DNA of 64,000 nucleotides from Octopus vulgaris (lineage: Eukaryota): contig OX597842.1 of the NCBI GenBank assembly GCA_951406725.2, forward strand, positions 8,184,001 through 8,248,000, in the 5' to 3' direction. A program made the position numbers and the translations under genes. This document shows positions 1-48,830 of the stretch, piece by piece. Each line of letters opens with the position of its first letter. Within the stretch, counting starts at the first letter, position 1. Under the pieces are notes generated by a model. The model was not told where the DNA came from and did not search any database. It saw only the letters and a list, made by a program, of their open reading frames with translations.

Positions 1-960
1 TCATTGATTTTCTTTTTTTTTAAACAGTTTGAGCGGACGTGACCCTTTTCGCCACATTTAAAGCACCTAGGTCTGCGCCCCTCCACTGACACTCTCATGG
101 AAGTTCCATCCTCATTAAATACCCTATCGGGCAAGTTTTCCAGTATCTTATTTTCTGCCTGAACGAGGAGTTCTAGCGTCTGTCCTTTCCAGCACACCTC
201 CTTTACTTCTCATCTGCAGAATTGAAACTTCCCACTCTACATTGTGCAGGACCGCCGCTGCTACCCACATTATATCATACCCTCTTGGTATATCCTCTAC
301 ATGTAGTTTGGCTGTTCTTTTCCCCATATACGAAGGTAGCAACATGATATCCTCATTTTTCAAGGTCATTGATGACACCTCTCTTGCTACCTCAGCTGAG
401 TCGAAATGTGCTTCAACGGTAGCGCTGCGAGCACCTCGAACAACGTGGCAAATTTTGTCCCACACCGGGGACAAGCACTTTTCTACTATTTCGTTCTTGA
501 CGTCCATTATTTTCTTCTCTCTGTTACTGTAAACCTTGTACACGACTGTCTTTGCCTTTATTCCTGTAATATTGCTTGTGGCGGTACCAGTTTTATTTCG
601 TTGCCTTCCTTTTTGACCAAGTTCCGGTATTCGAGCAACTGTTCTATTTTGAATTCCACTTCCGTTACGGTTCCGCTCACTGCGGCCGAAAAAGACTGTT
701 TTCTAACCTCAATATCCTTCTGTTCGCCTTTTCCCATCACGGGAAAGTCGCTCCACGACGCCAAGTCAAACTCTATTTCTCAAATTATGAGAACCAATTT
801 TTCAAAAGAAGTTACCCCGAAGGTAATAACAATGTTTATACACAGAATTTTCAGCCCCATAGGGTGAAAATTACTGTCACACAACGGACAACTGTTCAAA
901 TTCACGAGCAAACACAAACAACGACAAACAAAAAACGAACTCACTCAACAAAATAGGCAG
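1..960 (-). mobile_element. Tx1/L1-clade non-LTR retrotransposon ORF1 (gag-like) fragment with 5' UTR, disrupted
   Basis: ORFs 558..764 and 148..543 (IVEKCLSPVW...VRGARSATVEAHF...LLPSYMGKR) match the ORF1 motif of the elements at 42175 and 47440. A CCHC knuckle CFKCGEKGHVRSNC reads on minus at 24..65. Confidence 0.75.
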
Positions 961-1208
961 CTAACTTCTCAATACGCAGATGAAAGAGGGGTCCCTAGAC
1001 GCGTGACAAACCACCAGGTCATGATGAAAGGGAAGGCCGCCTTGCAAATATATGAGTTTTTCTAGTGACGTCTGCCACTGATTTCGAAAAACTGATAGTA
1101 AGCATTATTAAATCTCAGAATGAGATTGAAACGGTAATCGCTCGATAATGTAAAGTATAGAAGCCATCTTAACATGGCTAACCACATAGGGGAGGGGGTG
1201 TTACTGTA

Positions 1209-1406
1209 GCTTTATAGCCCCAGGAGATCGTCGTCTCCAGCTGGCTTTAGACACCATTTCAGTGCCCTTGAAGTATTTGCAAAGGGAGGCCAAGCGTATC
1301 ACTCAGGCTTGCGAGGAAGGGATGGCCTCCCTTTGCAAATACTTCAAGGGCACTGAAATGGTATCTAAAGCCAGCTGGAGACGACGATCTCTTGGGGCTA
1401 TAAAGC
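1209..1406. repeat. 84-bp inverted repeat with 30-bp spacer (long hairpin)
   Basis: 1209..1292 is the reverse complement of 1323..1406 with 2 mismatches by manual comparison. Confidence 0.95.
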
Positions 1407-1636
1407 CTGTCGTATATATGTATGTGTGTGTGTGTGTCTGTGTTTGTCCCCCTAGCATTGCTTGACAACCGATGCTGGTGTGTTTACGTCCCCGTCACTT
1501 AGCGGTTCGGCAAAAGAGACCGATAGAATAAGTACTGGGCTTACAAAGAATAAGTCCCGGGGTCGATTTGCTCGACTAAAGGCGGTGCTCCAGCATGGCC
1601 GCAGTCAAATGACTGAAACAAGTAAATGAGAATGAG
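1407..1636 (+). mobile_element. 3' half of abundant tRNA-derived SINE (family S1)
   Basis: Same body and tail (ggcggtgctccagcatggccgcagtcaaatgactgaaacaagtaaa) as the reverse-oriented copies at 26922 and 56032. Confidence 0.85.
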
Positions 1637-2003
1637 TGTAACAAGATGAAATGTTGGGCATAGAAACCCCACACACACCACGACCTAACACTGCTCTCAC
1701 ACTGGAGACTAAGGTATTCCGTTCAAGTTGGCCACATTCATATTGTTACGACCTGCCATCGCTCAACTCAGACTCAGGACCCTAAGTCAGAGGTACTTCC
1801 TACCCTCATTAATTTCCCTTACCGGTGACAAGACAAATACCCATTATTTCTTTTCCCAGCCAACAGAAGTGGGTCATAGCATTTTCTCTTTATTTTTTTC
1901 ACCTTCGCAACACTATCTATCTATCCAGGGACTTTGAGAGAGAGAGATATCAGAAACAAAAATAAGAACGCGACATTTGCTGATCGGTTGTATTAAAGTA
2001 AAG

Positions 2004-2892
2004 ATGTCTTGTTCTTGCGAATTCAAATATTATATTTGCATGCGTAACTTTATTCAGGAAGACAGAAAAGCTACAGAATTCCTTCGGAATCATGGTGTCC
2101 TACCAACTTCTGTAACATGTCTTCGATGTGGAAGCAAATGTATATACAGAGAAGACCAGCATATTTGGAGATGTAGGAAGAGTTTTACTGTCGCAAAATC
2201 AAAGAAGCGGCGTCAATGTGGCTATTCGATATCAGACTTTCATGGGACCTTTCTTGATAATGCACGCATTCGTCCATGGAAGCTTATTATCTTTGTGAAT
2301 GAGTTTCTGCTTGGTGCATAGCAGCATATAAGAGTCGTAGAAAACCTGGAATTGAGTCCAGCAACTAGTGTAGACTGGAGATCATTTTGTTCCAAAGTTA
2401 CGGAAAATTGGCTTCAATCTCAGGAAGCGATCGGTGGCGAATCAATCGAAGTCGAAATTGATGAGACTTTGATTGTTCATCGTAAATACGGGAGGGGTCG
2501 AATTTTGAGCCAAGTTTGGTTGTTTAGAGCGAACCAGTAAGCGTCGTTTTGTTGTGCCTCTTATTAATAAGAAGCGTGACAAAGCGACACTGGTTCCTCC
2601 AATTCAAAAACATATCAAACCTGGCTCCAATTATTTACAGCGATTCTTGGGCTGCCTACAAAGATCTAAGCAGTTTGGGTTACCACCATTACGTGATAAA
2701 CCATTCCGAAAACTTTGTAGATCCAACACACAAAACATTGAACGTTTGTGGAGAGATGTGAAAGAATGGATTCGGTGACCAGGCATGAAGCCGGAATATC
2801 TAAATCAATATCTGTCTAGATATTTATTTATCTCCTCGGAGAGTAATAAATTTTTGCTACTCCACAAATTCTTTCGACAGGCTGCCAAATTA
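2004..2892 (+). mobile_element. Merlin (IS1595/ISXO2-like) DDE transposase, frameshifted
   Basis: N-terminal Zn ribbon (CLRCG...WRC), EVEIDETL..RKYGRGR..QVWLF, IIYSDSWAAY..L...GYHHYVINHSENFVDP and TQNIERLWRDVK spread over ORFs 1977-2778. Confidence 0.85.
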
Positions 2893-3089
2893 TGTTTCTC
2901 TGTAATTTTACCGTTATAGAACTTATCGTGTACCACATGAACTGGTAACTAACTGGTAAATCAATATGCTGAGACTTCTCTTATGCTCTGTAATTTTACC
3001 TGTATTTCTGTTGTATTCGCATGCACCTTTATTTGTACCTTCTGTTGCTAAAAAAATTCCATATTCTTAATCTCTGTATTTTTCCACAC

Positions 3090-5270
3090 TTCGCTCTCTA
3101 TCGGACAGTAGTTTTGTTCCGCTTGAATTGTTGCACGAGATGCAAACGAAACAGGTAGCCATCTTTCGTTGTGTTTCTGCTCAAGTATTGCTCCGAGCTC
3201 ATGCTTACTAGTATCTGTAGTTATTTTTATTGGTAGATCTGGATCATAAAATTGTAGCACTGGTTTTCTGGTAATCATTTCTTTTAGCTTTTTTATTGCT
3301 TCGATTTGTGGTTTGTCGAATGACCATAACGTGTCACTCTGAAGAAGCTGGCATAATGGTGCTGTAACTTCGGAGAAATTTGATAAAAATTTACATAGGT
3401 AATTTGCCATACCTAGGAATCTTTGTAATTCTTTTTTACTTGTTGGCAGTGGCATGTGAATGATTGCTTGTACTTTGGTTGGATCTTGTTTTATCCCTTC
3501 GCTGGTTAATAGATGCCCAAGGTACGTGATTTGTGATTCATAGAAGATGCACTTTGATTTATTTAACTTTAATCCGTGCTTTCGGATTCGATCGAAAACT
3601 TGTAGTCTATTTGTGTGTTCTTCTAAAGTGCTGGACCAGATTATAATGTCATCCTGTGAATTTCTTGCTCCTTCTATGCCCTCTATTACTTTTGCGATTT
3701 CTTTTTGGAAAACTTCACTGGCGCTGTGAATTCCATAGGGTAGTCATGTGAAGCGATATCTTCCAAAAGGTGTGTTGAATGTTAACAGGTGGGAGCTTTC
3801 TTCGTCAACTGGAATTTGCCAGTATCCATTAGATGCATCGAGTTTCGAGAAATATTTAGGTTTATGCATTTGTGCAAAAATGTCCTCCGCTGTGGGGAGT
3901 TTGGAATGTTGCCTTCTTATGGCTTTGTTTAGATTCTTGGGGTCTAAACAGAGTCGGAGTTTTCCGTTGGCTTTTTCAACGATGACTAGGGAATTTACCC
4001 AGTCTGCAGGCTCACTAACAGGTTTTATGATTCCTAATTCTGTCATTCTTTTTAATTTTTTGTTGAGTTTTTCTTTTATAGAAAAAGGAACCGATCTTGG
4101 TGGATGAATTACAGGAGTTATTTGTGGATCCACTGTGATATGATGTGTTATTGACAAAGTGCTGATTTCTCCGAAACAGTCTTCATATTTTTCTATTATG
4201 TCGTTTGCGTTCGACGAATTTATTTTAAAAATTCTCTGAATTAGGTTCAGATCTTGAGCTGTCTTTGCATCTATAACTGCGTGCGAGTTTGTTTTTGCAA
4301 CGATGAATTTCATTTGTTTTGATACTTCTTTGTATTTAACGACTGCTGTGCATTTTCCTAGCACTTTTATAGCTGTGTTATTGTAAGCTGATAATCGAGT
4401 TGAGTTTTTTTGCAGTTGTGGTTTTGGAATTATAGTTTTATATTCTCTGAATGGCAGTACGGTTACGTCTGCTCCAGTATCAATTTTGAATGTTATATTT
4501 GTGTTATTCACTTTTAGTTCGACTGTCCAAATGTCTTTTGGAGTCTTGAACTTTTCGATTTTGTGCACACGGGAATTATTTGAAGTGATCATTTTGAGTG
4601 CATGTGTATCGTCATCTGATTCATCGTCCGTATGTATCTCTACTTTATGTACAAATTTTCTTGATTTGCACATTTTTGCATAGTGTCCTTGTTTCTTGCA
4701 TTTTTCACATATCTTGTGAAATGCTGGGCATTTATTTCTTTTGTGATTATAACCACAATAGTGACAGTTAGTGACGTAGTGTTGACTTAGTGCTTGAAAC
4801 TTCGCGGGCTTTCTATCACTTCCGCCTTGCTCATTTTGATGTCTGGATTGCATATGTCGAGTTATTTGAGTTTTGGCGCCTTTTCTGTCGTGTTGACTAT
4901 ATACCCTCGAGATTTCGTTATCTCTTGTTTCGGATGTGGCATTCAGCATCCTTGATTGGTGTCGTGTTTGCTCTGCACTCTGACCTTTCTTGAATTGTTT
5001 TTTGTAAGTCTAAATTTGGTTCTCTCAATAATCTTTCTCTTAGTTTCATGTCTCTGATTCCACATATCAGAATATCTCTGGTGAGACTGTCTGTGAGGTT
5101 GCCGAATTCGCACTGTTGTGCCTTTTGGCGCAACTCTACCCACATACTCATCAAATTTTTGATGTTCCGCTTGTCCACATGTGAAGAATTTGTGTCTCAG
5201 GAAAGTTATGTTTTTCCTGGGTTCACAATATGTATCGAATTTTTCGATTACTGTTTGAAGGTTCATTTCT
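3090..5270 (-). mobile_element. Ty3/Gypsy gag-pol fragment (gag, CCHC, protease, RT, RNase H), disrupted
   Basis: Gag (FDTYCEPRKN..RHKFF, DILICGIRD..LRERLLRE), CEKCKKQGHYAKMC, protease IDTGAD, RT (KLRLCLDP.NLN, FSKLDASNGYWQIP, TFNTPFGRYRF), RNase H (LQRFLGMANY, WLPVSFASR). Confidence 0.92.
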
Positions 5271-5281
5271 TAGTTGGTTGA

Positions 5282-6240
5282 ATCTGTAACAGGATCTGCA
5301 ACGGGGCTAAGCAAATTAGTCTGGCGTTTGAAGAACACAAATTCAACTTTTACGCTGGAATGGTCAATATTGTCGGTGTCCTTACCGTTTGATAAGGGCA
5401 GAAAAATCTGTGCCCTCTGTAATTCTGAACTTTTTCACATTCTGTTTGCCTGAGGCCAAGTAATAAACTCAATTGTCGAGAGATCTTTCAGATGCTTACA
5501 CTGGAAAAAGCATACCTTTCACTCATACCAATGAACTCTAATATAGATAACCCCTGGATTTCCTACAAAATTAATTTGTGATATCTCATCCCTTTAGTTT
5601 ATAAGATTTTCTCATAACTTCTAAGAGCTGCTACCAATTCCAGTAGTCCCCTCGTCTCTTGTCACTACTATTGTGGGCTCTCTCTGCCCACTCCCTCTTA
5701 AGTTGACACATTCGAACACACAGATACAGTCCTTTCACCTCTTGACTATTAATTTTCTGTCAGCCTTCTACACACACAATCACGCATTCACAGACACACA
5801 CACACATTAAGACAATTATACACACTCACACATACGAGCACTCATTCATAAAACAAATCAAATATAAACACCAGTCAAACGGAATGCATTCCCTCACCTT
5901 AATATTCTTTTACCTTCCTCCTCCAACCTCGATTGAACCCTTGAACTCTAGTAACTGCCTGTTTCGCCTACATTCAACCAATCTGACGTCACCCCCTATA
6001 AATAGACACTATTTATCATTATCGCTATGGGCTCCTCGAGAGCAGTCATCTAAAAACTTGTTGTGTATTTTGTTGTCGAAAGAAGTTCCTGGATTTTCCT
6101 GATGAGAAAGCTGCATAATGGACTCCTTAGTCACTCGGAATTAGGGACTTTGCAGACTTCGAAACATATGTCGAAAATAAAATAAAGGAATTTTGTTAAA
6201 TCTTCGCTCAGCTCCATTCTTTCCTATACTTATAATATTA
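5282..6240 (+). mobile_element. Penelope-like element 3' end (GIY-YIG C-terminus plus pLTR)
   Basis: 5292..5534 translates to ATGLSKLVWRLKNTNSTFTLEWSIL...GRKICALCNSELFHIL..*..FRCLHWKKH*, typical of a Penelope endonuclease C-terminus. It is followed by a hammerhead and AATAAA. Confidence 0.75.
6093..6178 (+). ncRNA. Type I hammerhead ribozyme (Penelope-type)
   Basis: Stem I attttc/gaaaat, core CTGATGA (6099-6105), extended stem II gaaagctgca...tgcagacttc, GAAAC, palindromic stem III ACATATGT, GTC cleavage triplet. Confidence 0.8.
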
Positions 6241-6385
6241 AATTAAACTTCAAATTTCCGCACTAAGGCACGGAGTATATGCCCTATGGTCGTAACTTCA
6301 ACCGTGTTCTTTCTGTTGTGAGTTTGCTACCCAGGTATTGGTTATCTTTCGAATTATCCGTAATAAGATAATTCATTTATCTACT

Positions 6386-6427
<42 letters not shown>

Positions 6428-7144
6428 AACATACATAAGGGAAGGTGGTGTACGTACGCCGCAATAATATAGGAATAAAATTTATATATAAAGAAACAAG
6501 AACGTGAAATACACAAAGGGACGAACACAGAAAACAGACGGGTCATTCGAAGCCTTTAATCTTCAGTCAGAAACTGGATCATCATAGCAAATTTCGGCTG
6601 ATTAATTCTGATATTTGCTCCAACGAGGTCAGCCCCAAGGAAAAACTAAGCTGTGAGCATTAGATTTCTTGGAAAAAGGAACGAATGTAAACAAATATAA
6701 ATACAAAAAACGAAAACAAAAATAAAAACAAGAATGGTTAATGACAGGATAACAGCAGGTGTCTTACGACTTTAGACAAAATGAGACAAATATAACTTAT
6801 CTAGCAGGCGTGTTTGGAAACAATTGCCTTTTCGGCAGAGGGGGAACGATGTTGAGCGGGCCGCAGTCACCAACGGAATGGCTGTATGAAAGGAAATAGT
6901 GAGTACTTAGTATGAAAGATTAAGAAAGTGAGAGAGACTGAATAAACGTGTTAACAATATGAGATACTTTATTAGACTGCTGCTTATACAAGGTATCTCC
7001 CGGGGCAGGAGATTTACTGATTGTCTCTGTATCAAGGGAGATAATGGGCGATGTTAATTGTTCATATTTGTTGTGATGATTACATTAACAACTACCACTT
7101 TTCTTGGGTGGCATTTTTTCATAACTTTCAATATGTGCGTCTCT

Positions 7145-9800
7145 GGCAGATGGCAATCCCTCAAGGTCGAGGATGATGGTCTTCGCGCAAATTTACTGGT
7201 GAGTCCGTAGGTGACCGATAAGACCAATTCTTGCTTGAAAAGATCGGTCGTAGTGCGGACATCAAGTGCCGGAAGGGAGAGTTGCACGTGGTTGTTGTTG
7301 GCGCTCCTTCCGTCGTCGTCTTTTCTCCTCCAGCTCTGCAGACCTTTTCGACTCGAAAGTCGCCGTTCCCTCATGGATGGTGGTTTTCCAGAGTGGTCTG
7401 TTTTTTGCCATTTCCTCCCAGTTAGTGAAGTCGATGTCACACTTTTTGAGGTTCGTTTTCAGGGAGTCCTTGTAGCGTTTCTTCTGGCCTCCTTTTGTAC
7501 GCTTGCCGTCTTTGAGTTGGGAGTAGAAGATCTGTTTGGGAAGTCGTCCGTCAGTCATTCTAACCACGTGGCCACTCCATCTTAGTTGGCCTTTGATGAC
7601 ATAGGCTTCAATGCTGGTCATTTTTGCTTCTTGTAGCACGCTGACGTTAGTTCTTCTGTCTTCCCAGCTGATGTTAAGGATCTTCCGAAGACAGCGTTGG
7701 TGAAATTTCTCAAGCGTTTTCAGGTGGTGACTATACGGGGTCCAGGTTTCGGATGCGTAAAGGAGGGTTGGAATAATGACTGCCCTGTACACCATGAGTT
7801 TGGTTTCGGTTCGGATGTCCCGATCAGCAAAAACTCTTGTTCGAAGCTTGCCAAAAGCTGTTCCTGCACACTTCAGACGGTGTTGGATTTCATCGCTGAG
7901 GTCTACCTTTGCTGACAGATGGCTCCCAAGGTAGCAGAAATGGTTCACAATTTCCAGTGGAATTCCTTCGAGTTGGATCTGTTGGAGGTGATCCTCTCTG
8001 TAAGCTGCTACACTGTTGTCGTTGGCATATTGGAACTCTAGCAAGCTTCGCGCCATTGTCTTTGATGTACTTTTGAGGCGAGTGAGGTTGAAAAGCTTGC
8101 CGTCCATTCTGTACGAGATCTCGATGCCAGGTGGAAGGTCATCTAGTATGATGTGCAACACTGTCGCGATAAAGATGGTAAAGAGAGTTGGCGCTATCAC
8201 GCAGCCTTGCTTCACTCCGGAGGTGACTTTAAAGGGCTCAGAACTGCCTCCGTCGGTCTGGACTCTGGCGTGCATATTGTCGTGGAGGAGTTTGAGGATC
8301 CGGATGAACTTATCTGGGCATCCATACTGGGCGAGAATATCCCAGAGGAGCTCTCGCGAGACACGATCAAAGGCTTTGGATAGGTCGATAAAGGCCAAAT
8401 AGAGCGGTTGGTGTTGCTCACGACATTTTTCTTGTAGCTGTCGCAGCGTGAAGATCATGTCAGTTGTGCTTCGTGATGGCCTAAAGCCGGTCTGCATCTC
8501 AGGAAGGATCTTCTCTGACAGCGTTTTCAGGCGGTTGTTCAGGATGTGTGCAAGAATCTTCCCAGCAGTTGCTAATAAGGAAATACCCGGTAATTTCCAC
8601 ACTCAGAACGATTGCCCTTTCGTTTGTAAATGGTAATGATGTTAGCATCCCTGAAGTCGGATGGTACAACTTCATTTGTCCAGATTTTGACCAAGAGTTG
8701 GTGGAGTTGGTGTTGGACAAAATCACCTCCCAGTTTGTAGATCTCAGCTGCGATTCCATCAGGACCCACGGCTTTGTTCTTCATCGCTGTGATAGCAATT
8801 TTGACCTCTTCAAGGGATGCAATTTGAGCGAGAGAGTAATCTTTGGCCTCTTTAGGAATCATGTCAAGTATGCTTTTGTCGATGGTAGCCTTGTGATTGA
8901 GGAGGTCATCAAAGTGTTCTCTCCATCTGTCTCCTATTTCGGTGTTGCTTTTCAGGATAGTCGCTCCGTCTTTACTCTTCAGAGGAGCCTGTCCATGTGT
9001 GGCAGGTCCGTATATTTCTTTCGTGGCTTTGAAGAACCCTCTGGTGTCGTTTACATCTGCTAGCTGCTGGATTTCACGAGATTTGTGTCTCCACCACTGG
9101 TTCTTCAGGGTACGGGTTGTCCTTTGAACTGCGGCTTTGCACTTTATGAAAGACTTGTTTAGTGGCAGACTTTGGATCATTCTGTGAGCTGATGAAAGCT
9201 TTCCATTTTTGGTCGATCAGTTCTTTGAGAGCTTCATCATTTGTCGTCGAACCAGTCCTGGTGTTTCCTTTTCTTGTGACCGATGGTTTCTTCGCAAGCG
9301 GTGATGATGGTTTCTTTCAGCTGGTTCCAATTTTCTTCGACGAGATGGTTTGGAGTCTTATTTTGAAGATTGACCTGTAGGCGCTGCTGGAAAGCGACAC
9401 GAGTTTTTGGGTCTTGCAGTGCTTCGATGTTGAATTTCTTTACTCTGCTTTCCTTGCTGTGATATTTAACTTTTGGTCGGAGTTTGATTTTCATGGTGGA
9501 GGCGATGATCTGTCCAGCACTCATCTGCTCCAGTGGCGGCTCTGGTGAGCAACACATCTTGCTGGTCTCGGGATCTCACGATGACATGCCATTTTTTAGA
9601 TCTTGGATGCTGCCATGAGACCTTATATCGATTCTTCTGGCGAAAAAGGGTGTTGGTTATCACCAGGTTATGTTCAGCACATTTGGTGAGTAGCAGAGTT
9701 CCATTGGCATTGACTTTTCCCACTCCTTCCTTTCCGATGGTTCCTGTCCAGAGTTCACGATCTCTCCCAACTCTGGCGTTGAAATCTCCCAGGAGAATGA
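7145..9800 (-). mobile_element. RTE-clade LINE, APE C-terminal half plus RT to 3' end, frameshifted
   Basis: IILLGDFNARVG, GPDGIAAEIYK, QTGFRPSRSTTDMIFTLRQLQEKCREQ, AFIDLSKAFD, GVKQGCVIAPTLF, degenerate YAND, LRWSGHVVRM. Confidence 0.92.
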
Positions 9801-9885
9801 TCTGCAAAAGTTCAACCCCTCCTCCACGGGGTGCAGACTGGGCAACGAGCACAGCAAGCCAGCTGTGCTAGCGGCAAACGGGGCT
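9801..9885 (+). ncRNA. HDV-like self-cleaving ribozyme at the RTE 5' end
   Basis: P1 tctgca/tgcaga, P2 agttc/gggct, P3-L3 ccc-tcctccac-ggg, GGGCAAC, P4 agcacagc/gctgtgct and a J4/2-like GGCAAA, in the canonical HDV order. Confidence 0.65.
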
Positions 9886-36983: not shown

Positions 36984-39019
36984 TTATTTCAAAACATTTG
37001 CCATAAAGGCAGTACAGAGATTAAGTTAGCTTTGCGGGCTGGACGAGGACATTAATGAAGTGAATGATAATGAAAGACAGATGATAAGGATGGGAGAAGA
37101 CAAAAAGCGCCCGCCGACTTTCGCTTCTCTAAAACATTGTTCTTTTTAAACACAAAACGAGGTATTAAACCTCTTACAATTTTTCCAATTTTTGGACTTA
37201 GCAGTCCATTATTAATAAAAATGCAAAACGAGGTATTAAACCTCTTTCAATTTTCCAATTTTTGGACTTGGTAGTCCATTATTAATACTAACAGTTCAAT
37301 AATTACATATCGTCCTCGAAATAGCTTGTGCCCGCGCCCTCCACCATCAACCACGCCTCCCTCAGAACGTAATCAAGTTCCGAGTTCGCGTCGCCAGGGA
37401 CCAAGCTATAATCTTCATTGAGCTCCTTTAGCCCAAGCGTCACGTCGAACGCCATGGCCTCCACAGCTATCTGCGGAGGCCATTCGGGGTCCTGTGTGAA
37501 GGCTAAAGGAGCTCCCTTGTGGTACTCTTCCATTTTTTTTTCAATTTCTCCTCCTCTATAGAAGAGGACCAATACGTTCAGTTCTTTCGTTGGCGGCACA
37601 GTTCCCGCCAACGTCTGCGGCTCATGGATATCAGCTGCCCGACCTTTTTCTCCTCCTTCTTTTGGGGGAGACTGCTGACCCAGGGGACTCCGTCACCAGA
37701 CACGGGGGATTGCTATCCCCCTCCGCCACCTGAGCGTTCTTTGGCGAGCAGCCATTGTTGCTCGCCTGTCTCTTTCTTTTCGTGGAGGCAACCTCCTCCA
37801 TGACTTTCACCGTCTCCCCCTCCAATGAGGGGGCGGCGGGCGCCTTTTCCCCTTCATGCTCCGGGGCACCACCACGGCCCCCGGGACAATTCCTCTTGAT
37901 ATGTCCGGGCTTCAGGCACAGGTGACACTTGGGGGGCGTCCCTCGAGTATCACCGGGTACTTGTGCCCAGCCATTCTCAGGAAGTCCGGGAATTTCATTT
38001 CTCCCACGGCCACCGGTGTCCACAGGGTCAAAGTTGCCTTTGACCCCTCCCAGGCGACCGCGGGAGCCATTTTCACACTCAGTAGCCTGGGTCCGCTAAC
38101 CCCCAGGCCTCGCCGGATGGTCTTCTTGATCCATTCCGCCTCCGTGCCCGGGGGCAGCCCACAAACCCAGGCTCTTTTTACTTTTCTGCCACAATACGAG
38201 GGGAGGAACAAAATTTCCTCTCCCTCCGGTGGCTCGCTAGCAAATCTGCTAGCTTCCTCGGGGGTACCAAACAGCAACCACACCGTTGCAAATTTACTCC
38301 CCCGAGAAATAAACTTTATCGTTGGTAGGTGGTCCCCCAACTCTTTCTCTATGGTGCTCCTGTCGAAGAGGGCGATAGCTCCACGCGACCTAGAATAGGT
38401 TCATAGGACCACCGTCCTCTTCTCAAGACTTTCAATCCACTGCTTGGGTGGGACAACCTCCCATTCCAAAGCAGTGGTTTCTTTTGTTGCCATGATTTTG
38501 AAAAAAAAGTTCAACTAAAAGTTCAAAGTCCAATAAGAAAAAAACACAATGACAGAATGGAAAGACAGAGCAGAGAAAAGGACGAAGGAAGACAGTTCAA
38601 ATAATGGCAACACAGTTCTGCAACTGGTAATCCTCACGAAACAGGGTACTCCTAGTTGCAGCACACTTGGTTCTCCGTGGTAAATCCAAGCACAATTGGT
38701 TCTCCGTGGTAAATCCAAGCGAACAAATTAATTTTTGAGGAGGGGCTATGCCTCTTCAAAATACACAATTCTCACTAAAAGGTGAAACAATAAATACGCC
38801 AACAGGCAGAACAAATACATCCGAAGCAAAGTGAAGCTTATTACGTGCAGAAAAGTGTTAACACTAATTAACATTAATGCCAAAAAAGTATTAACGGCAA
38901 GCAATAAACCTCACTATGCTTCCAAAAATATCCAAAATGTCCTACCTGTTGCCGTAAAATGTTCAATAATTCACGTTAACACGTGACATTTGCCGGAGCA
39001 AAAAACAGCACGTCTGTCT
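36984..39019 (-). mobile_element. Apparently complete ~2.0-kb ORF1-only (HAL1-like) element, family B/A type, inserted in SINE S1
   Basis: 5' end AGACGTGCTG, ORF1 (ISRGSKFATVWLLF, LFLPSYCGRK, CHLCLKPGHIKRNC, C-terminal ...EDDM*), 3' UTR ending in AATAAA. Flanked by ggttagcaagctact / ggtaagaagctact. Confidence 0.8.
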
Positions 39020-39058
39020 GGTAAGAAGCTACTTACCACACAGCCATTCCTACGCCTA
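39020..39058 (-). mobile_element. SINE S1 head fragment (other half of 36594..36983)
   Basis: ggtaagaagctacttaccacacagccattcctacgccta. Confidence 0.85.
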
Positions 39059-39688: not shown

Positions 39689-41209
39689 ACATTAATTCAC
39701 ACTAAATATTTTCATCTTCCTGGACATTTGATTATACATTCACATCCTCTGGGAAGCTGGCTTCTACAGCAGCACAAGACTTTTCTTTTCTGTTCCATAG
39801 AGTAATATCCGGTCTTATATTTGCACCAAATGGATATTTTTATTGGGATGTTCCATCAGTATTTCTTGATTTTAACCCCTTAATGGACCAATTATTTTGA
39901 CATGGTGTTTCATTTCGGAGCATATTTTTTTATTTCCTTTTTTAATTATATACACTGTGTTAATTACAAAAAAAAAAAAAGTTTTTTTATCTTGTTTCCT
40001 TTATTTCTTATTATAGAAATTAAAATGTCCTTTCACTCATTTGGATTTAAACGAGTTAACTCAGACATTGAAAAAATACATATAACTCAACTATCTTTGA
40101 GCAGTTTTCTGCTAGCCACTTGATAATATTTTCACATGATATTCTACATCTAATTGTTTGTATAATAGTACTCAATTGCTTTTTGGATTTGGTTTGCAAG
40201 ATTCTTTATATGAATTCGTGTGTTGAAGCATATTCTGTTGTGTCTAGGAACAGTCATTTTCTTTTTGTGCCTTATAATTTAACATACTCACCGGTAAAAT
40301 TTCCACTTATTTCTTTTTTCTTTTTCTAAAATTTTCGTTGCATCTTCAAACCTTTTCAATAGTTTTGACTCTGTCCGTTATTCACACTACGTCCTTTTTG
40401 TTAGTTTGTGCACATGTGTGTGGGTCAGTGTGTGTGTGTGTGCATACACATGCATGTATGTATATATGCATACGTGTGTATGTATGTATACATGCATGTA
40501 TGTTGTGTGTAAATTTGTATATATGTATTCTGCATATTCATCTGTTTGCATGTCTGTTGTTTCGTTTCGTTTAACGTCCCCTTTCCATGCTTGCATGGGT
40601 TGGACGGTTCAACTGGGGTCTGGGAAGCCAGAAGACTGCACCAGGCCCATTCTGATCTGGCAGTGTTTCTACAGCTGGATGCCCTTCTTAACGCCAACCA
40701 CTCCGAGAGTGTAGTGGGTGCTTTTTACGTGCCAGACGAGGCTGGCAACGGCCACGATCGGATGGTGCTTTTTACGTGCTTATGTTTTTATGTATGTGTG
40801 TGTATCTCTGTCTCCTTGTGTGTGTGTGTGTGTGTGTTTTGCAACTATGTACCGTGTTTGTATGTATAGATGTGTTATCTCCATATGTGTGGACATGTGT
40901 CTCCATATGTGTCCTTGTGTGAAGTAAAGTGTGTGTGTATATATGGTCATGTGTTTCAGTCTTCATTTGTGTATGTGTGTGTACGTGTGCTTGTCTGTTC
41001 ATATAACCTATATACCTATCCGTCTGTATGTCTATCTGTTTACTTTCGTATCCATATGCTTACATACACATGCATATACATAAACACACACACACATACA
41101 TCTATCTACATAACAGCCCACTAACTATTCTATTCTACCTGTGTAAACTGTAGGTATGGAGGTATGATATCTACTATGTATATTTCCTATTTATTATTGG
41201 GAAGTTTCA

Positions 41210-41765
41210 TTTATGAGGATGTACTCCTGTATTTGTCTGAGTGTTGGGTCCTTTGGGTGCTTGGATAAGATGCGGGTGTCAAGTTTACCCAGGTTGCCTC
41301 TATGTTGGTCCTTGGCATGTTGGTAGAGTATGGAGGACTATTTTTTTGTCATCATTTAGTCTTTCTGCAATGCTCCTAGATGTCTCCCCTATGTACATCA
41401 TGTTCATGTCTTTACAAGCACCTTCTATGCATCTTATGCTGTGATCTACACTTCTAGTTCTACAGTTAATGCCAGGGCTAATCCTACATACCATGCAGTT
41501 ATCATTGGTGCATTTGGTATTCTTAAAGGGTAAGTCCTACATAGTCGTGATCTGACGGAGTTCCCTGGCTTTTCAACAATCTTAATGTTGAGTTTGGTCT
41601 CCTTCAGAGCAGTCCTAAATCTATGGGCTAGTTCTCCATGGGCTGTGGCCTCTACAAACATCACTTTTTGATATTTGTTGGTTTTATACCATGTGTTCGC
41701 CCTGTTTGTTTTGTCACAAGCTCTTTGTATTCTATTCAATTCTTTGTTTCTATATCTAGAAATGT
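41210..41765 (-). mobile_element. Penelope RT-linker/GIY-YIG fragment
   Basis: WYK...VMFVEAT.HGELA...IKIVEKPG; YIGETSRSIAERL. Confidence 0.8.
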
Positions 41766-41769
41766 CTGC

Positions 41770-42170
41770 AAATGTCTGTGGTTTTGCCACCCGTATGGCA
41801 CAATATGTGGTTGTTCAGCTCTTGGAAATCTAATACTGGCCTGACTTTATGCTTCATTGGCTGCACCACTGCCATCAAGGGTAGTACTCTACTCTCCACT
41901 TTTTCCTTCCAAAGGATCAGAATTCCTTCTTTGATCCACCTCTCCCTTGAACTCGCTTCAGTCATGCCCTTTCAAGGTATGCTGATACCGCCGTACCATC
42001 TAACACGCCTGCTCTATATGCTGTCCACCGCTAACTGACTGCTTGCACCTTGCCAACCCCACATGCCCACCACGGCCCTTCTGGTGGGACCCACAGGTCC
42101 CATGTCCAACATGCTTACTCCCTCACTTCCGGTCCTTCCCTTCAACACAGCTTGGCTCATAACACCACAA
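41770..42170 (-). mobile_element. LTR retrotransposon RT N-terminal fragment
   Basis: WIKEGIL...LPLMAVVQPMKHKVRPVLDFQELN. Confidence 0.6.
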
Positions 42171-42273: not shown

Positions 42274-43308
42274 AGGAAGGAGCTGCAGGTCCTCCTGTGT
42301 TCCTTGAATTATTACATTAATGTCTCGCCCAAGCCAATATAGAGGGGCAGAGCATGTTACTTGTAGTATTTTAATTTTGTCCGTCCTTTTATTTAACAGG
42401 GCGGCCACTACCTCTACGGGATCTACTTCTGGCGGTGCTTCTGCAATCCTGACCCGGGATGTCCTGCATCCCCTATAGGTTGGCAGAAGTACCACCTCCT
42501 TGGTTTTTAGGGGATTCACAGAATGCCCACGGGCCACCTCTTCCCCCGAGAAGTGGACCTCCACAGTGCCATATGCCCGTCCCCTGGCGACGTACACAAT
42601 GTCCTTCCAAATCGGGGACAGGCATTTCTCGATAGTATTCTTTTCAAAGTGTTTGAACCTTCTGCTTTGTGGACGGAAGGTTTTAAACACTACGGTCCGC
42701 TTCTCGGTCTCCACGATACTGGCGGAGGGTGATATTTTAACATCACCACCCTCCTCTTTCATTCTTTTAAATAGCTCGATGAGCTGATTGACATTGATGT
42801 CAATGTTCTTGGTTGCCACTGCGGCTACCGTCGAAAATTTTTTACTACAGTTATCAACATTGCTCTCCTCTAGAGCACTATTTTCGTGAATAATCTCAAC
42901 AGACATTATTCTGTTGAAATTAGTAATAGACAACACAAAAAATACAAATATTAGTTTCCCACAAAACTGGGAAACCTAAAAAAGTTTCTTCCAAGCAGTT
43001 CAAAAATTAGGTTTAATTCCCACCCCCATTCGGGGGAGGGGCACGAAGATAGTCTGGCAAGACTAACAGTCACGTAGATAAAAAAGCCACAATGGCTAAC
43101 AGTTCAACAGTAACAAATTATCCAATTATTCCCCGGTAAAACTGGAGAACAAGACAGTTCAACAACGTTCAAAAACAAATTTTCAGTAGTAAAATTCAAC
43201 AAGTTCCAGATGGTACGAAGTAATATTAACAACACAGCAAAACTCTTACCGGGAAGAAAATGCGTCCAAACTGTAGTAAGGTAAGCAAAGTCACTCTTCA
43301 GTCAGTGA
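42274..43308 (-). mobile_element. Tx1-type family C 5' UTR plus ORF1 N-terminal half
   Basis: ORF 42175..42936 (MSVEIIHE...EKRTVVFK...IEKCLSPIW...RGRAYGTVEVHF...LLPTYRG) is a paralog of 47440..48258. The 5' end abuts ggttagcaagctact. Confidence 0.8.
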
Positions 43309-43323
43309 GGTTAGCAAGCTACT

Positions 43324-44670
43324 TTATTTCAAAACATTTGCCATAAAGGCAGTACATAGAGTAAGTTGGCTTTGCGGGCTGGACAAGGACATTAATGAAG
43401 TGAATGATAATGAAAGAAAGATGATAAGGATGGGAGAAGACAAAAAGCGCCCGCCGACTTCTGCCTCTCTAAAACATTGTTCTTTTTAAGGATAAACACA
43501 AAACGAGGTATTAAACCTCTTTCAATTTTTCAATTTTTGGACTTAGCAGTCCATTATTAATAATAACAGTTCAATAATTACATATCGTCCTCGAAGTCGC
43601 TTGTGCCCGCGCCCTCCACCATCAACCACGCCTCCCTCAGAACGTAATCAAGTTCCGAGTCAGCGTCGCCCGGGACCAAGTTAAAGTCTTCATTGAGCTC
43701 CTTTAGCCCAAGCGTCACGTCGGACGCCACGGCCTCCACAGCTACCTGCGGAGGCCATTCGGGGTCCTGTGTGAAGGCTAAAGGTGCTCCCTTGTAGTGC
43801 TCTTCCATCACTTTTTCAATTTCTCCTCCTCTATAGAAGAGGACCAATACGTTCAGTTCTTTCGGTGGCGGCACAGTTCCCGCCAACGGTATTCCTTCTC
43901 TTGTCGGTGGCACAACCCCAACCGACGTAGTTCCGGGACATTCCGGTGCTACACTGACAGTCGGTAATGTCCCGTTTTTCTTCCTCTTTTTCTTTTTTTT
44001 TTCCCTTTTCAACTGAGGGAGGGTGCGTCTCCTCCGTGGCTGGAAGATTCACCTTCCTCTCCTCATCCCTATTATCCTTTGGTGAGCACCCATTGTTGCT
44101 CACCTTCCTCTTCGGCCTCTGTTTGAGGAGTCCTCTGCTTTCTCGGCCGTTATCATTCCCTCTTCTAGAGGGGTTTTACTTAACTGTTCTGGGAGCCTAT
44201 TTTGTTCCCGGGGACAGTTCTTCTTTATGTGGCCGGACTCCAAGCACCGATGACACTTAGGGGGCGACCCTCAAGCATCACCGGGTACCTGCACCCGGCC
44301 ATTTTCAAAAAATCTGGAAAAACCAGATTGGCTGATTGGGTCCACAGGGTCAAAATTGCTTTTGACCCAACCCAAGCAGCCGCAGGAAGAACTTTTACAT
44401 TAAGGAGCTTAGTTTCGCTGCCACCCAGACCCCGGCGGATAGTCTCCTCTATCCACTCGGGTTCTATGTCGGGTGGCAGACCGCAAATCCAAGCTTTCAT
44501 CAATTTCTTTTTTTTGTACGTGGGCAGGAATAAGATTTCCTTACCCTCCAGGGGTTTGCTAGTGAGCACCCATTGTTGCTCACCTTCCTCTTTCGGCCTC
44601 TGTTTGAGGAGTCCTCTGCTTTCTCGGCTGTTATCATTCCGTCTTCTAGAGGGGTTTTACTTAACTGTTT
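43324..44670 (-). mobile_element. ORF1-only (HAL1-like) element family A', 5'-truncated, intact 3' end
   Basis: ORFs 43578..44012 and 44225..44569. The 3' junction ctact-ttatttcaaaacatttgcc is identical to that at 36981. Confidence 0.8.
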
Positions 44671-44679
44671 CTCCAATTA

Positions 44680-44900
44680 TAATAGGTATGAGGCTAAAAA
44701 ATGTATCTTAGGTACTTGATTTGCAAACCCCTTATCAATGGTCCTTTTTTGTAATTTTCTTGCCACTTTGGTGACCAGGGGACAGCTGATTTCCATAACA
44801 ACATATCTTTTCCTTGTAGTCCCACACAATATCTGGTTAGTTGTATTTTTACTTGGTGGTTGTTTTAATTCTAAATTTCCACCAATATTCTTTACACCAT
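44680..44900 (-). mobile_element. R4/Dong-like RLE fragment, degenerate
   Basis: Minus translation with N*PDIVWDYKEKIC and a frameshifted EISCP. Confidence 0.45.
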
Positions 44901-45404
44901 TGGTCTTTTAGGTGGTGAGAGGAGTATTTGCGATGGTGATGGTGGAATATTAGAGACTCGAGGTAGGCGTGTGGGTAGTGTTCATACATACCTTTTTGTG
45001 GAGAGCAACCAATAAAATCAAGCAATGAGGATATTTAGTGAAGATAATTTATTCCTTGTAATATGCTATGGCATCCTGGTATGTAAGGCTTGCAGAATCA
45101 ATGTGTGTGAATTCAGCATTATTAAATGATACCTACTGTGAGACAGGCATCACAAAACCATATGTGGGGCACTGAAACAAAGAGAGATGGTTAGCAGTCC
45201 AAGTTGTTGACAGCTGGGAAGATGACTGCCAAAAGAAAAGAAAAAAAAGAAGTCTGTCGTGTTCTTTATATCTCTTTCACCATTTGTTATCTGTAAGGGC
45301 TGTTATGTGTTTTGCACATGCGTCATGGCTGCCTGCTGTGTTCCTTCCTGGCTTTTATGTTTAGCCCTGAGTCAATCCAAGCACAGGCATGATGGGTACG
45401 CTAC

Positions 45405-45780
45405 ATACTCCCTTGGGCAGGGTGGATGGGTATTTGGTGATAGGCCTGGACAAGATCTGGTTTCGAAAATATAGTACTACCATGTAGCAAAGCTGTGAAA
45501 TCCTGCAAGTTTGTAATGGGATAGTGGTCTGGGACCGTGATGGTATTAAGGCATTTATAGTCCCTGCAGGGTCGACAGTTGGCAGATGACTTCTTCAGTG
45601 CCATGTGTAATGGAGAAGCTCAGCTCTAGGAAGCAGGATGTACAATTCCAAGCTGTAACATGTTTTTGAATTCCGCTTTTGTAACCTTAAGTTTTTCTGC
45701 TGACAAACGTCACTACTGAGAAAAGACAGGTGAGCCCATGGTTGAAATGTGGTGTTCTACAGTGTGAGTTATCTTTTCCA
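45405..45780 (-). mobile_element. Gypsy RT fragment
   Basis: SPLHMALKK...RPCRDYKCLNTITVPDHYPI..LQDF...STIFSK.DLVQAYHQIP. Confidence 0.8.
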
Positions 45781-46010
45781 TAGGACATGGGTTGCATTAA
45801 CTCTGGGAATGACCACAACATTGCTTTCTTAAGCTGTTCTCCATCCTCAACTGTTTCATTTTCCTGTTCCTTGAGCCCTTCTTTCCTTTTACTAATTGGG
45901 TCCCATATTTTTTCCCTCCAAAGGGTTCAATTCTTGTATCATATTCTGAGATTGCTAATTTCCCAGTTTCTCCTCTGTGGATCACGTCATTTTATATAAA
46001 GCTTTGTGAA

Positions 46011-46175
46011 GGCGCATGGCTTAGTGGTTACGGTATTCAGCACATGATCATAAAGTCGTGAGTTCAATTCCTGGCAACTCCTTGTGTCCTCGAGCAAGAC
46101 ACTCTATATCATGTTGCTCCAGTCCACTCAACAGACAAAAGTGAGTTCTACCTGTAATTCAAAAGGGCCAGCCTT
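46011..46175 (+). mobile_element. Second tRNA-derived SINE family, 5' part
   Basis: A box tggcttagtgg, B box gagttcaattcc, followed by gtgtcctcgagcaagacact. Confidence 0.65.
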
Positions 46176-46199
46176 ATTTGATGTTCGGATGGTCAAGTC

Positions 46200-48790
46200 T
46201 CTAACGAACCGCCAGCTGAAACCGCTTAAGCAGATCCACGAGATGTGAGTTCACTTTCCTATGGATCGAGCCAACACTATCGATGTGTACGTCAACGATA
46301 GCATTAAAGTCTCCTAATACTACTAAAGTCTTCGACATCACGAGAAAGCCCTCTAGGTACTGATAAAAATCAGTTTGGAAGCCTCTAGCACAAGGTGCAC
46401 AGAGTCCGATCAACCTGAAGGCCTTACTGCTGTATGTCACATCAAGGACGACCAGCCCACCTTCAGGGTCCACATAGACTGTACTTGTCTGCAGAGCCAA
46501 GCTTTTACAGATCAGTACCACTACACCCCCTCGTCCTCCGGTCTGACCGGGAGACATGATTTTCTCGTAGCCATTCAGGAGAGGCGAGAAGGTTTGTAGA
46601 TTATCCAGCTTGGTCTCTGTAGCAACCATCACATGCATATCATGTGATCTGAGATCGTCGAGGAAACACGCCTGCTTCCACTTCAAACTCAGACCACGCA
46701 CATTCAAACAACCAAGGTTAAGAGACGCCGTTACAATAAGTAAAGGTTCTACTTACATTTCTTTGGAGATTTGGGGGCTGACCTTACCACATGTGGATCC
46801 GTCCCCTTCTCGTATCTCTTCGCGTAACCCGGTAAATCCACAATCTTCCATATGGCCATCTGGTTTCTGTCCTTTAGTTCCCGGTATAGGGATTTTTCTA
46901 CCCTTGCACATCTGTTCTTCAAATCATGGTGTTGGATGTACAGCATAGTCCTTTTGTGCTTTAAAAGGGCGTCACTTGTATACGTGTCTGTCGTATCGTA
47001 TTCCACCAACATAACATTTTTGTTTTCTTCCGGGACAGATGGGCAGGGTTTCTTTTTTGGTGTCTGTGGTGCGTTTTTTTCTGTTTTGTGTGGAGGATAT
47101 GGGTTGTGAAGGTCTACGGGAACGTTTCTTTCCCACTAGTGTGAATCCAACCTCTGAAACCTCCATGGTGTTATCTGAGGGGTTGGTGGCAGTTTCTTTC
47201 GGCGCAGTGTTTTCCATTGGTGCCGGGTCTTCCAAGAGGGTTGGGTCATTTTGTTTATGTAGGGACTTGTGCATGCCGGGGCTGGGTTTTTCTGTGCTTT
47301 GTTTGGAGACTAGCACCTCAACAACGGGGGTGGGAGTTTTTGTTTGTGGGGGTTGGTGTGTTTGCGGGGGCGGGTTTTTTTTTTTGTTATTTGAGGGGCC
47401 TGGTGTTTGCAACAACTTTTCTTTTTCTTCACAGTCAGCTCAAATGTGGCCCTTTTTTCCGCATTGGTAACAGGTGGGCTTACGGCCTTCCACCTGTACC
47501 CTAAGGGCCACATTCTCCCCAACGAGTACTCTCTCTGGTAGGACTTGAATGTCCTCCTGTTTGCCTTGTATTAAAACCGTTATGTTCCACCCTAACCACA
47601 TCTGTGGGGCGGAACTTGTGGTCTGTAATATGTTAATCCGGTCCGTCCTGTTAAACAACAGGCCGGCCACCACTTCTTTCGGGTCTACTGTGGGTGGGAT
47701 TTTGTTAATCCTTACACGGGATGATCGTCGCCCCCTGTATGTTGGCAAAAGTACCACTTCCTTGGTCTTCAGGGGGAATACGGCGTGCCCGCAAGCCACC
47801 TTTTCCTCTGAGAATTGAACCTCAACGGATCCGTATGCCCGTCCCCTCGAGATATACACTATATCCCTCCATATCGGGGCCAGTCATTTTTCAATGGTTT
47901 CCTTCCCGAAGTGCTTAAACCTTTTGTCTTGTGGGCAGAAGGTTTTAAACACCACGGTCCTCTTTTCCGTTTCTAGCACGGTGGAGGAGGGCGATATCAC
48001 AACATCACCTCCCTCCTCCTTCATTCTTTTAAAATATCCCTGCAGCATGTCTGCAGAGATATCTATGTTTTCGGTTGCTACTTTTGCAACTGCTGAAAAC
48101 TTTTTCTCAGCGTTGGCGCAATTGCCAACATCAACATTGCTCTCTTCAAGATCAGATTTTTCATGTATTATTTCAACCGACATGGTTGAAAAGTAATTGG
48201 TTTCCCACAAAACTGGGAGACCTTTCGAAAAAAGAAATTTTCCGCTCACAGAGGACAAAAGTAATTAATTTTTTAAATACTCGCAGTCCTAGGTTCAAAT
48301 CCCACCCCCGCTGGGGGGTGAGACGTAGCAACAAAGTCTACGACGATTTGAAATTATTTTCCACTACAACGAAATCCCCAAAAAGGGAAACCTATATTTT
48401 TTCCAAAACAGGACGACAACAGTTCAAATCTCGCCTGTGCTACGGGTGGATGTCACAATAGAGCCTACAATGGCTAAAATTTAATTTTTTCACAACAATT
48501 TGCTATCCCAAAAATGGGAAGCCTATAATATTTCTTTTCCTCTTAATCAGGATAACAGTTCAAATGCCACTCCCGCAGGGAGGGGGGGGGCACAACAATA
48601 AAGCCTACAACGGCTTTAACAAGTTCAACAATATTAATAATTCAATATTAATTTTTTTTTTCCCTTACAACAATTACTTTTTCCCGTCACCGGGAAGAAA
48701 ACACAAAAGTTCACAAAAATATTCAATAAACTAAACAGCAGAAAAATTATCCGTGTGACTCACCGCAAAAAAAACACCGAACATGTCTGA
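46200..48790 (-). mobile_element. Tx1-clade family C element (5' UTR, ORF1, APE N-half), 5' end at the SINE target site
   Basis: ORF1 with CYQCGKKGHI knuckle; ORF2 start NVRGL...VATET...LCAP...LGDFNA. The 5' end is followed by ggttagtgagctacttaccacgcagcc. Confidence 0.85.
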
Positions 48791-48830
48791 GGTTAGTGAG
48801 CTACTTACCACGCAGCCACTCCTGCGCCTA
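48791..48830 (-). mobile_element. SINE S1 head fragment (target-site side)
   Basis: ggttagtgagctacttaccacgcagccactcctgcgccta. Confidence 0.88.

What the first reader, a model, noticed from the sequence alone, without database searches (positions are those of the whole stretch)
1..48830. ~49-kb strand-biased transposon graveyard: candidate uni-strand (flamenco-like) piRNA cluster
Seen: by my count about 24 protein-coding TE fragments from unrelated superfamilies (Tx1, ORF1-only, RTE, R2, R4-like, Gypsy, Penelope, piggyBac, mariner) are on the minus strand. Only Merlin, one Penelope end and the inverted RTE 5' piece are on plus. All are broken, nested or locally duplicated, there is no host exon, and TE density drops after ~49 kb. 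Known: Drosophila flamenco and similar uni-strand clusters accumulate antisense TE fragments. Inference: a plus-strand precursor would yield antisense piRNAs to all these families. Caveat: local duplication and same-orientation target-specific stacking inflate the count.
Basis: partly seen in the sequence, partly recalled or inferred. Interest (0 to 1): 0.75.

Follow-up and report, generated by a model that had tools for sequence, protein, structure and literature searches.

The report
One-way transposon archive behind NAPE-PLD
In a probable octopus genome, the 56 kb just behind a lipid-enzyme gene (NAPE-PLD) is packed with pieces of about 18 jumping genes, 17 of them facing backwards, a layout that likely lets RNA running on past the gene's end supply small silencing RNAs (piRNAs) against them, although neither the RNA's direction nor the small RNAs have been shown.

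Summary
A sharply bounded island runs from about 7.3 kb before the window to 48.8 kb. With a library built outside it, transposon proteins cover 22,880 bp on minus and 147 bp on plus; 16 random 50-kb windows show less cover on mixed strands. Part of the count is inflated. About 15% is local duplication, and Tx1-type elements stack at fixed targets: (TCTA)n tails, and a SINE head in 19 of 19 outside copies. Collapsed, 17 of 18 coding insertions are still minus (p=1.4e-4), and 11 of 12 without Tx1 types (p=0.006). SINEs and non-coding ends show no bias. The island is not in the intron of the gene found: it starts about 2.5 kb after the stop codon of a plus-strand NAPE-PLD gene and ends before a converging minus-strand gene. 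Contigs from runs guessed to be RNA cover its unique R2 copy, without strand or silent control. Best reading: a uni-strand piRNA source most like mammalian clusters downstream of genes (piC-DoGs) and slug clusters, not a Gypsy-led flamenco. Small RNAs are untested. The scan noted two similar loci elsewhere in this genome (unchecked notes).

The parts
1..48830 (.). In-window part of the transposon island; it begins about 7.3 kb before base 1, about 2.5 kb after the stop codon of a plus-strand NAPE-PLD gene
1..990 (-). 5' part of a Tx1-type LINE (family B), second copy of a two-copy stack that continues upstream; the upstream copy has a 1,037-aa ORF2 and 96-97% relatives genome-wide
1412..1641 (+). 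3' half of the abundant tRNA-type SINE (S1)
1938..2758 (+). Merlin/IS1595-type transposase fragments, the only independent plus-strand coding insertion
   Evidence: PF12762, E 2.6e-4
3051..5269 (-). Gypsy gag-protease-RT-RNaseH fragment; 95-97% relatives elsewhere
6020..6800 (.). Two non-coding repeat ends, one plus (6020-6240) and one minus (6441-6800); the Penelope label is recalled
7265..10699 (-). RTE LINE with an inverted 5' piece (10202-10699 on plus), counted as one insertion; 96-98% relatives
10668..19300 (-). Tx1-type LINE (A2) in locally duplicated, internally deleted pieces (94-98% to each other); one event
15607..21534 (-). ORF1-only element 1 (locally duplicated), 5' end joined to a SINE head
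21890..22150 (-). Mariner-like transposase fragment (recalled motif; atlas lead only, no Pfam hit)
22223..26645 (-). Full-length R2 outside rDNA with a 42-nt 28S leader and about 20 nt of 28S-like sequence after its 3' end; 75-82% to rDNA-resident R2
26929..27293 (-). Complete S1 SINE
27486..27992 (-). Penelope GIY-YIG fragment
28610..36148 (-). One piggyBac split by later insertions (3' zinc finger at 28610-28785, 5' part at 34063-36148); up to 94% to dispersed copies
28785..34062 (-). Tx1-type LINE (A) with a tandemly tripled ORF1 segment, 5' junction at a short (TCTA)n run; 93-97% to dispersed copies
34830..35175 (-). RTE 3' fragment inside the piggyBac; 96% twin at 39347-39692 (collapsed to one event)
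36605..39040 (-). S1 SINE split by ORF1-only element 2, with target-site duplication
41206..41814 (-). Second Penelope fragment
   Evidence: tblastn to the first Penelope
41850..42170 (-). RTE-like 3' coding end (label recalled from motif)
42275..48830 (-). Stack of Tx1-C and ORF1-only elements at SINE-head target sites; the SINE head at about 48795-48830 marks the island's right edge
44683..44907 (-). C-terminal fragment of a restriction-like-endonuclease LINE (R4-like label recalled)
45300..45700 (-). Second RT fragment, Gypsy-like (label recalled)
53200..54217 (-). Right-hand neighbour: last exon and 3' UTR of a CD225-like gene pointing toward the island
   Evidence: atlas 0.87; Pfam CD225 E 0.034, a lead

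Best explanation
The 56-kb island of backward-facing transposon pieces is likely a uni-strand piRNA source, probably transcribed on the plus strand by read-through past the end of the NAPE-PLD gene. Shown: the island, its sharp edges, its place 2.5 kb behind a plus-strand gene, the strand bias after collapsing, and the presence of young dispersed relatives of most of its elements. Inferred: a plus-strand precursor; its start at the NAPE-PLD promoter rather than a promoter of its own (about 60:40); processing into antisense piRNAs; selection keeping antisense insertions. Tx1 stacking at SINE heads and (TCTA)n runs, and local duplication, then enlarge the archive without changing its direction.
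For: Outside-built library: 22,880 bp minus and 147 bp plus, 41% cover. The 16 of 16 random windows have median 4,341 bp, maximum 12,543 bp and a one-strand excess of at most 7,122 bp; the 8 flank blocks have at most 7,511 bp. Background orientation is 124 plus to 137 minus with no overdispersion. Collapsed counts are 17 of 18 (p=1.4e-4) and 11 of 12 non-Tx1 (p=0.006). The last NAPE-PLD exon matches residues 354-387 of the 393-aa human enzyme and ends in a stop. Gypsy, RTE, piggyBac and Tx1 pieces have 93-98% relatives across the genome, which would be the targets. Run X1 (RNA by guess; 74 million contig letters against a 2,800-million genome) has contigs in 29 of 30 bins of 19.9-31.1 kb. Its listed pieces across the R2 are 98-99.8% identical, while other fetched R2 copies are 75-88%, and one contig bridges the R2 3' end and its local flank. 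The layout matches piC-DoGs and slug uni-strand clusters (PMC11615739). piRNA loci are reported in an octopus (PMC12479628 section 22).
Against: No small-RNA data, no strand, and no silent-region control for the RNA signal; the runs are RNA only by the tool's guess. Runs X2, X5 and X9 cover the R2 only patchily. Against an intron-like 65-70% antisense bias (a recalled range) the non-Tx1 count is marginal (p=0.04-0.085), and with SINEs and non-coding ends included 20 of 26 is not significant (p=0.14-0.30). Small repeats lean plus, 5 of 8. Plus-strand AATAAA is not depleted (32 seen, 14 expected from composition), and seven AATAAA/ATTAAA hexamers lie between the stop codon and the island. Single-family one-strand stacks of similar cover arise without any cluster being needed (28,408 to 0 bp on C20). 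Three of the 11 non-Tx1 minus labels were recalled; without them it is 8 of 9, p=0.039.
Confidence: 0.55

Rival explanations
1. The island lies in a plus-strand read-through or long non-coding transcript where sense insertions are purged because they terminate or disturb the transcript, as in introns, but it makes few or no piRNAs.
For: Same geometry and same RNA signal as the best explanation. The non-Tx1 count of 11 of 12 is only marginal against a 65-70% antisense expectation.
Against: It explains direction but not density. Cover is about five times the random median and ends sharply at both edges. In mouse, read-through genes that make no piRNAs have similar sense and antisense transposon content (PMC11615739 section 10).
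Confidence: 0.2
2. A neutral gap between two converging genes filled by chance; self-stacking Tx1 elements and local duplications multiplied one orientation and the rest is coincidence.
For: Tx1-A carries (TCTA)n tails and forms one-strand stacks on C20, C2, C17 and C23. ORF1-only elements sit in SINE heads in 19 of 19 outside copies. 8,277 bp (15%) is second or later local copy, and 65% of coding cover is Tx1-type. Two of four Tx1-anchored windows are also strongly one-sided. The window was picked for its bias, so p-values are post hoc.
Against: The stacks examined are essentially single-family. Here Gypsy, RTE, R2, Penelope, piggyBac and others share the direction (11 of 12). The six Tx1-type events, which use at least two different kinds of target, also all point minus. 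Windows anchored on a young Gypsy (7 plus, 8 minus) or RTE (3 plus, 5 minus) are mixed. Rfam and ARAGORN find no RNA-gene array to act as a common target.
Confidence: 0.17
3. The region is transcribed on the minus strand, by read-through of the CD225-like gene or from element promoters, and the elements lie in sense.
For: A minus-strand gene ends about 4.4 kb right of the island and points into it. Contigs cannot show strand.
Against: The 4.4 kb between them is ordinary microsatellite-rich DNA. Sense accumulation in transcribed DNA is the opposite of the usual pattern (recalled). One X1 contig leaves the window at an AG|GT on plus, a weak hint of a plus-strand splice donor.
Confidence: 0.08

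Closest known systems
piC-DoGs, piRNA clusters downstream of genes (mouse, human, hamster; Konstantinidou et al. 2024, PMC11615739; read: passages and section 10)
   Same: Dense transposon fragments directly behind a gene's last exon, antisense to that gene; the top mouse read-through transcripts exceed 50 kb; LINEs are prominent.
   Different: Defined by measured read-through RNA and piRNAs in mammalian gonocytes; neither is shown here. The host would be a cephalopod, and much of the content is target-specific Tx1.
Uni-strand piRNA clusters of slugs (Arion vulgaris, PMC11615739 passages; Deroceras laeve, PMC12506671 passages)
   Same: Mollusc; piRNAs from one strand, antisense to densely packed transposon fragments (Arion example).
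   Different: Those rest on small-RNA mapping. A link to an upstream gene was not in the passages I read.
Drosophila flamenco and flam-like clusters (van Lopik et al. 2023, PMC10643416; passages)
   Same: One-orientation transposon accumulation outside centromere and telomere, detectable from the genome alone.
   Different: There the bias is driven by Gypsy, and the flam-syntenic loci quoted are 227-1,085 kb. Here Gypsy-type RT is about 2.4 of 34.7 kb of coding cover and the locus is 56 kb.
Antisense Tirant insertions in host 3' UTRs (PMC13226689; abstract and outline only)
   Same: Host-gene transcription through antisense transposon sequence as a piRNA source.
   Different: Single exonic insertions, not a multi-family 56-kb archive.
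Target-specific Tx1 LINEs: Kibi and Koshi (microsatellites), Tx1 in Tx1D, Tx1-Mar (PMC4494074; passages)
   Same: Tx1-type elements here use (TCTA)n runs and a fixed base of a SINE head, and stack in one direction.
   Different: This accounts for 6 of 17 minus events, not for the Gypsy, RTE, R2, Penelope and piggyBac pieces.

Membership tests
piC-DoG | Lies directly downstream of a gene's last exon | tested here: met
   The last NAPE-PLD exon and stop lie about 2.5 kb before the island
piC-DoG | Dense transposon fragments antisense to that gene | tested here: met
   22,880 bp against 147 bp; 17 of 18 events
piC-DoG | Region is transcribed | tested here: inconclusive
   Locus-specific contigs in runs guessed to be RNA; no silent control, no strand
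piC-DoG | Read-through past the host poly(A) site joins gene and cluster | not tested
   No RNA could be laid across the gene end; contigs could not have shown strand
piC-DoG | piRNAs from host exons and the downstream region | not testable with these tools
   No small-RNA reads available
flam-like unistrand cluster | Transposons mostly in one orientation | tested here: met
flam-like unistrand cluster | Bias driven by Gypsy LTR elements | tested here: not met
   Gypsy 2,216 bp plus a 216-bp RT piece, against 22,468 bp of Tx1-type, out of 34,718 bp
flam-like unistrand cluster | Outside centromere and telomere | tested here: met
   8.2 Mb into a 34.6-Mb contig with host genes on both sides; centromere position itself is unknown
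flam-like unistrand cluster | Hundreds of kb long | tested here: not met
   56 kb
flam-like unistrand cluster | One-strand piRNAs in somatic gonad cells | not testable with these tools
   No small-RNA data
Target-specific Tx1 stack | Insertion at a fixed target | tested here: met
   SINE head in 19 of 19 outside ORF1-only copies; (TCTA)n at the 5' junction in 8 of 9 Tx1-A copies shown, about 60 nt inside the ninth
Target-specific Tx1 stack | The array consists of the targeting family | tested here: not met
   12,250 bp of coding cover is from non-Tx1 superfamilies, 11,191 bp of it minus
Intron of a plus-strand gene | Plus-strand exons of one gene on both sides | tested here: not met
   NAPE-PLD ends upstream. 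The first plus-strand host Pfam hit downstream is TMEM161 at about 180 kb, beyond several minus-strand genes (ORFs of 112 aa or more plus two shorter ones). Small or non-coding exons are not excluded.
rDNA or small-RNA gene array used as a target | RNA genes in the island | tested here: not met
   0 Rfam and 0 ARAGORN hits; only short 28S flanks on the R2

The most novel reading that the evidence does not exclude
This is a cephalopod piC-DoG: read-through from an ordinary metabolic gene has been kept as a transposon trap. It would show that the gene-downstream route to piRNA clusters, described in mammals, also works in molluscs, that it can capture a stray R2 from rDNA, and that self-stacking Tx1 elements feed it.
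Probability: 0.33. Interest if true: 0.7.

Novelty: new member of a known kind. Interest (0 to 1): 0.5.

Why it matters
My searches for 'octopus' with 'piRNA cluster', 'octopus vulgaris' with 'piRNA', 'cephalopod' with 'piRNA' and 'piwi', 'piC-DoG' with 'readthrough' and 'mollusc', and 'NAPE-PLD' with 'piRNA' listed no paper describing a cephalopod piRNA cluster locus or a mollusc piC-DoG. Only open-licence papers are searched, and most listings were seen as titles and abstract starts. The locus gives a compact, partly uniquely mappable target (the R2 copy and its junctions) for asking how an octopus with thousands of young LINE copies stores transposon memory, and whether read-through clusters are older than mammals. 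If no piRNAs are found, it still shows how far target-specific Tx1 stacking can mimic a cluster, which matters for genome-only cluster prediction.

Tried and rejected
Run search: no RNA holder listed on record; all were guessed. The planned RNA control across the NAPE-PLD end gave no data, so RNA identity, background depth and read-through stay open. Rfam and ARAGORN on the window and near flanks found no RNA gene, and an E-value scan of the R2 5' end missed the 42-nt 28S piece, which a genome search then placed. I tested whether other off-array R2 copies sit in similar islands: the four regions examined did not, and two are orphan rDNA units. Plus-strand poly(A)-signal depletion: none. T-richness of the plus strand was not counted as evidence because it follows from antisense LINEs. 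SINE orientation: no bias. The mariner fragment had no useful PDB or Pfam hit. The supplement of PMC12479628 had 0 hits for 'piRNA' and gave no octopus cluster table; other papers' supplements were not read and may list cephalopod clusters. One query in my library labelled PLE (L064) is a Tx1 ORF2; it was relabelled and does not affect strand totals. Earlier notes near this place or by the R2 sequence: none.
Full report
Setting. The window is G000 C29:8,184,001-8,248,000 in a 2.80-Gb genome of 227 contigs. I fetched 200 kb on each side.

Observation. Pfam on 124 minus and 142 plus ORFs puts transposon domains on minus across 1-48.8 kb. In that range only Merlin and the inverted RTE 5' piece are on plus. 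The island starts about 7.3 kb before base 1 and stops at 48.8 kb; inside it AT skew is -0.11 to -0.17 and simple repeats are 2-7%, against mostly 8-55% in the flanks. A library built from proteins outside the island, which favours the controls because their own ORFs are in it, gives 22,880 bp minus and 147 bp plus (41%). The 16 of 16 random 50-kb windows give a median of 4,341 bp, a maximum of 12,543 bp and a one-strand excess of at most 7,122 bp; the 8 flank blocks give at most 7,511 bp. Across those 24 blocks 124 elements are plus and 137 minus, with no overdispersion.

What inflates the count. Second and later local copies make up 8,277 bp, 15% of the island. Tx1-type sequence is 22,468 of 34,718 bp of coding cover, and it is target-specific. 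Family A ends in (TCTA)n, begins after (TCTA)n in 8 of 9 junctions shown, and forms one-strand arrays elsewhere, up to 28,408 to 0 bp in 40 kb. The ORF1-only family is followed by the same base of the S1 SINE head in 19 of 19 outside copies and 2 of 2 island 3' ends. Tx1 target preference is known (PMC4494074 passages). I therefore counted each stack and duplicate set once, by hand. That leaves 17 minus and 1 plus coding events (p=1.4e-4), or 11 of 12 without the six Tx1-type events (p=0.006), or 8 of 9 after dropping three labels that rested on recalled motifs (p=0.039). One of the three was later tied to the C-terminus of an RT-bearing LINE on minus. Small non-coding repeats are 3 minus and 5 plus; all elements together are 20 of 26 (p=0.009 against 50%, 0.14-0.30 against 65-70%). 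These tests are post hoc, since the window was chosen for its bias. Windows anchored on a young Gypsy or RTE are mixed; two of four anchored on Tx1-A are one-sided, mostly through stacks.

Gene context. Upstream lies a plus-strand NAPE-PLD gene (E 6.6e-55 to the human enzyme). Its last exon matches residues 354-387 of 393 (E 0.053, the only hit) and ends in a stop about 9.8 kb before base 1. Seven poly(A)-like hexamers follow, and the island begins about 2.5 kb after the stop. Downstream, a minus-strand CD225-like last exon (54,217-53,726, poly(A) signal near 53,200) points toward the island. The first plus-strand host domain found further on is at about 180 kb. So the island fills a gap between converging genes and is antisense to the gene it abuts most closely. 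Rfam and ARAGORN find no RNA-gene array.

Content. Gypsy (95-97%), RTE (96-98%), piggyBac (up to 94%) and Tx1 (93-97%) pieces have young relatives on many chromosomes. The R2 is different. It is full length, 75-82% to copies in rDNA, and carries a 42-nt 28S leader and about 20 nt of 28S-like sequence behind it, but no other rDNA. It is an off-target copy, so its direction is an independent event.

Transcription. No holder is on record as RNA. I laid 4 of 24 listed runs on 19.9-31.1 kb. X1 has contigs in 29 of 30 bins, with depth 4-21 over 22.1-25.9 kb and near zero over 25.9-26.6 kb; its listed R2 pieces are 98-99.8% identical, and one bridges the R2 3' end and 94 nt of local flank. X2, X5 and X9 are patchy. 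Other fetched R2 copies match those pieces at 75-88%, so the contigs come from this locus. With 74 million contig letters for a 2,800-million genome, X1 is enriched for this region, which fits RNA but also chromatin libraries. Strand and a silent control are missing.

Mechanism. Most likely (0.55) a plus-strand precursor, probably read-through from NAPE-PLD, is cut into piRNAs antisense to these families, and selection keeps antisense insertions. The geometry, bias and targets are shown; precursor strand, read-through and piRNAs are inferred. Rivals are a plus-strand transcript that purges sense copies without piRNAs (0.2), neutral filling with Tx1 stacking and chance (0.17), and minus-strand transcription (0.08).

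Comparison. It works most like mammalian piC-DoGs, which extend a gene past its poly(A) site across dense antisense transposon fragments, over 50 kb in the top mouse cases (PMC11615739 section 10). It also resembles slug uni-strand clusters. I reached these two papers through an earlier scan note (e1-8671949) and read the passages myself. It fails two flamenco features, Gypsy-driven bias and size (PMC10643416 passages). Membership in any piRNA cluster class needs small RNAs. Molluscs have somatic and germline piRNAs (PMC6128900 abstract start and passages), and piRNA expression was measured in O. bimaculoides arm tissue (PMC12479628 section 22). PMC13226689 was seen as abstract and outline and PMC13188248 as passages with no mention of octopus.

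Verdict. A real and unusual feature, partly inflated by stacking; a candidate new member of a known kind. The scan noted two similar loci on other pieces of this genome, one also behind a gene; those notes are unchecked and are not counted as support. Interest 0.5.

Noticed in passing
window 36984 and 43320; L186-L204: ORF1-only elements insert at one base of the S1 SINE's tRNA-like head, in sense, in 19 of 19 outside copies, with a target-site duplication of about 13 nt. The scan has noted this system before.
   Followed up: yes
G000 C20:69.99-70.03 Mb, C2:75.74-75.77 Mb, C17:36.73 Mb, C23:49.01 Mb (L041-L047, L056-L059): A young Tx1 family ends in (TCTA)n, sits after (TCTA)n and forms head-to-tail one-strand arrays of two to five long copies.
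   Followed up: partly
G000 C29:25.63-25.70 Mb (L165-L172): About a dozen R2-related elements in a one-strand array, with 12 matches to the 42-nt 28S leader; one 450-nt LSU piece was found in the one locus scanned. The cause, self-targeting or tandem duplication, was not resolved.
   Followed up: partly
G000 C20:23.95-24.07 Mb (L173, L174); C14 and C11 (L176, L179): rDNA array with an 18.3-kb period, one unit holding an R2 at the standard site; orphan R2-bearing rDNA units on C14 and C11.
   Followed up: partly
window 21065-21342: An X1 contig matches 278 of its 356 letters exactly, then leaves the window at a plus-strand AG|GT. This could be a splice donor, an allele or an assembly branch.
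   Followed up: no
window 1160-1406: A short repeat fragment followed by its own inverted copy; the same fragment flanks both ends of the upstream Tx1-B.
   Followed up: partly
L030:336-6584 (about 154-161 kb in window coordinates): A 2,083-aa minus-strand ORF with no Pfam hit.
   Followed up: no
L022:7492-7914, L023:930-1349, L023:6385-7134: Two similar CD20/MS4A-like exons (one with a Pfam hit) and a ligand-gated ion channel exon, all minus strand, downstream of the window.
   Followed up: no
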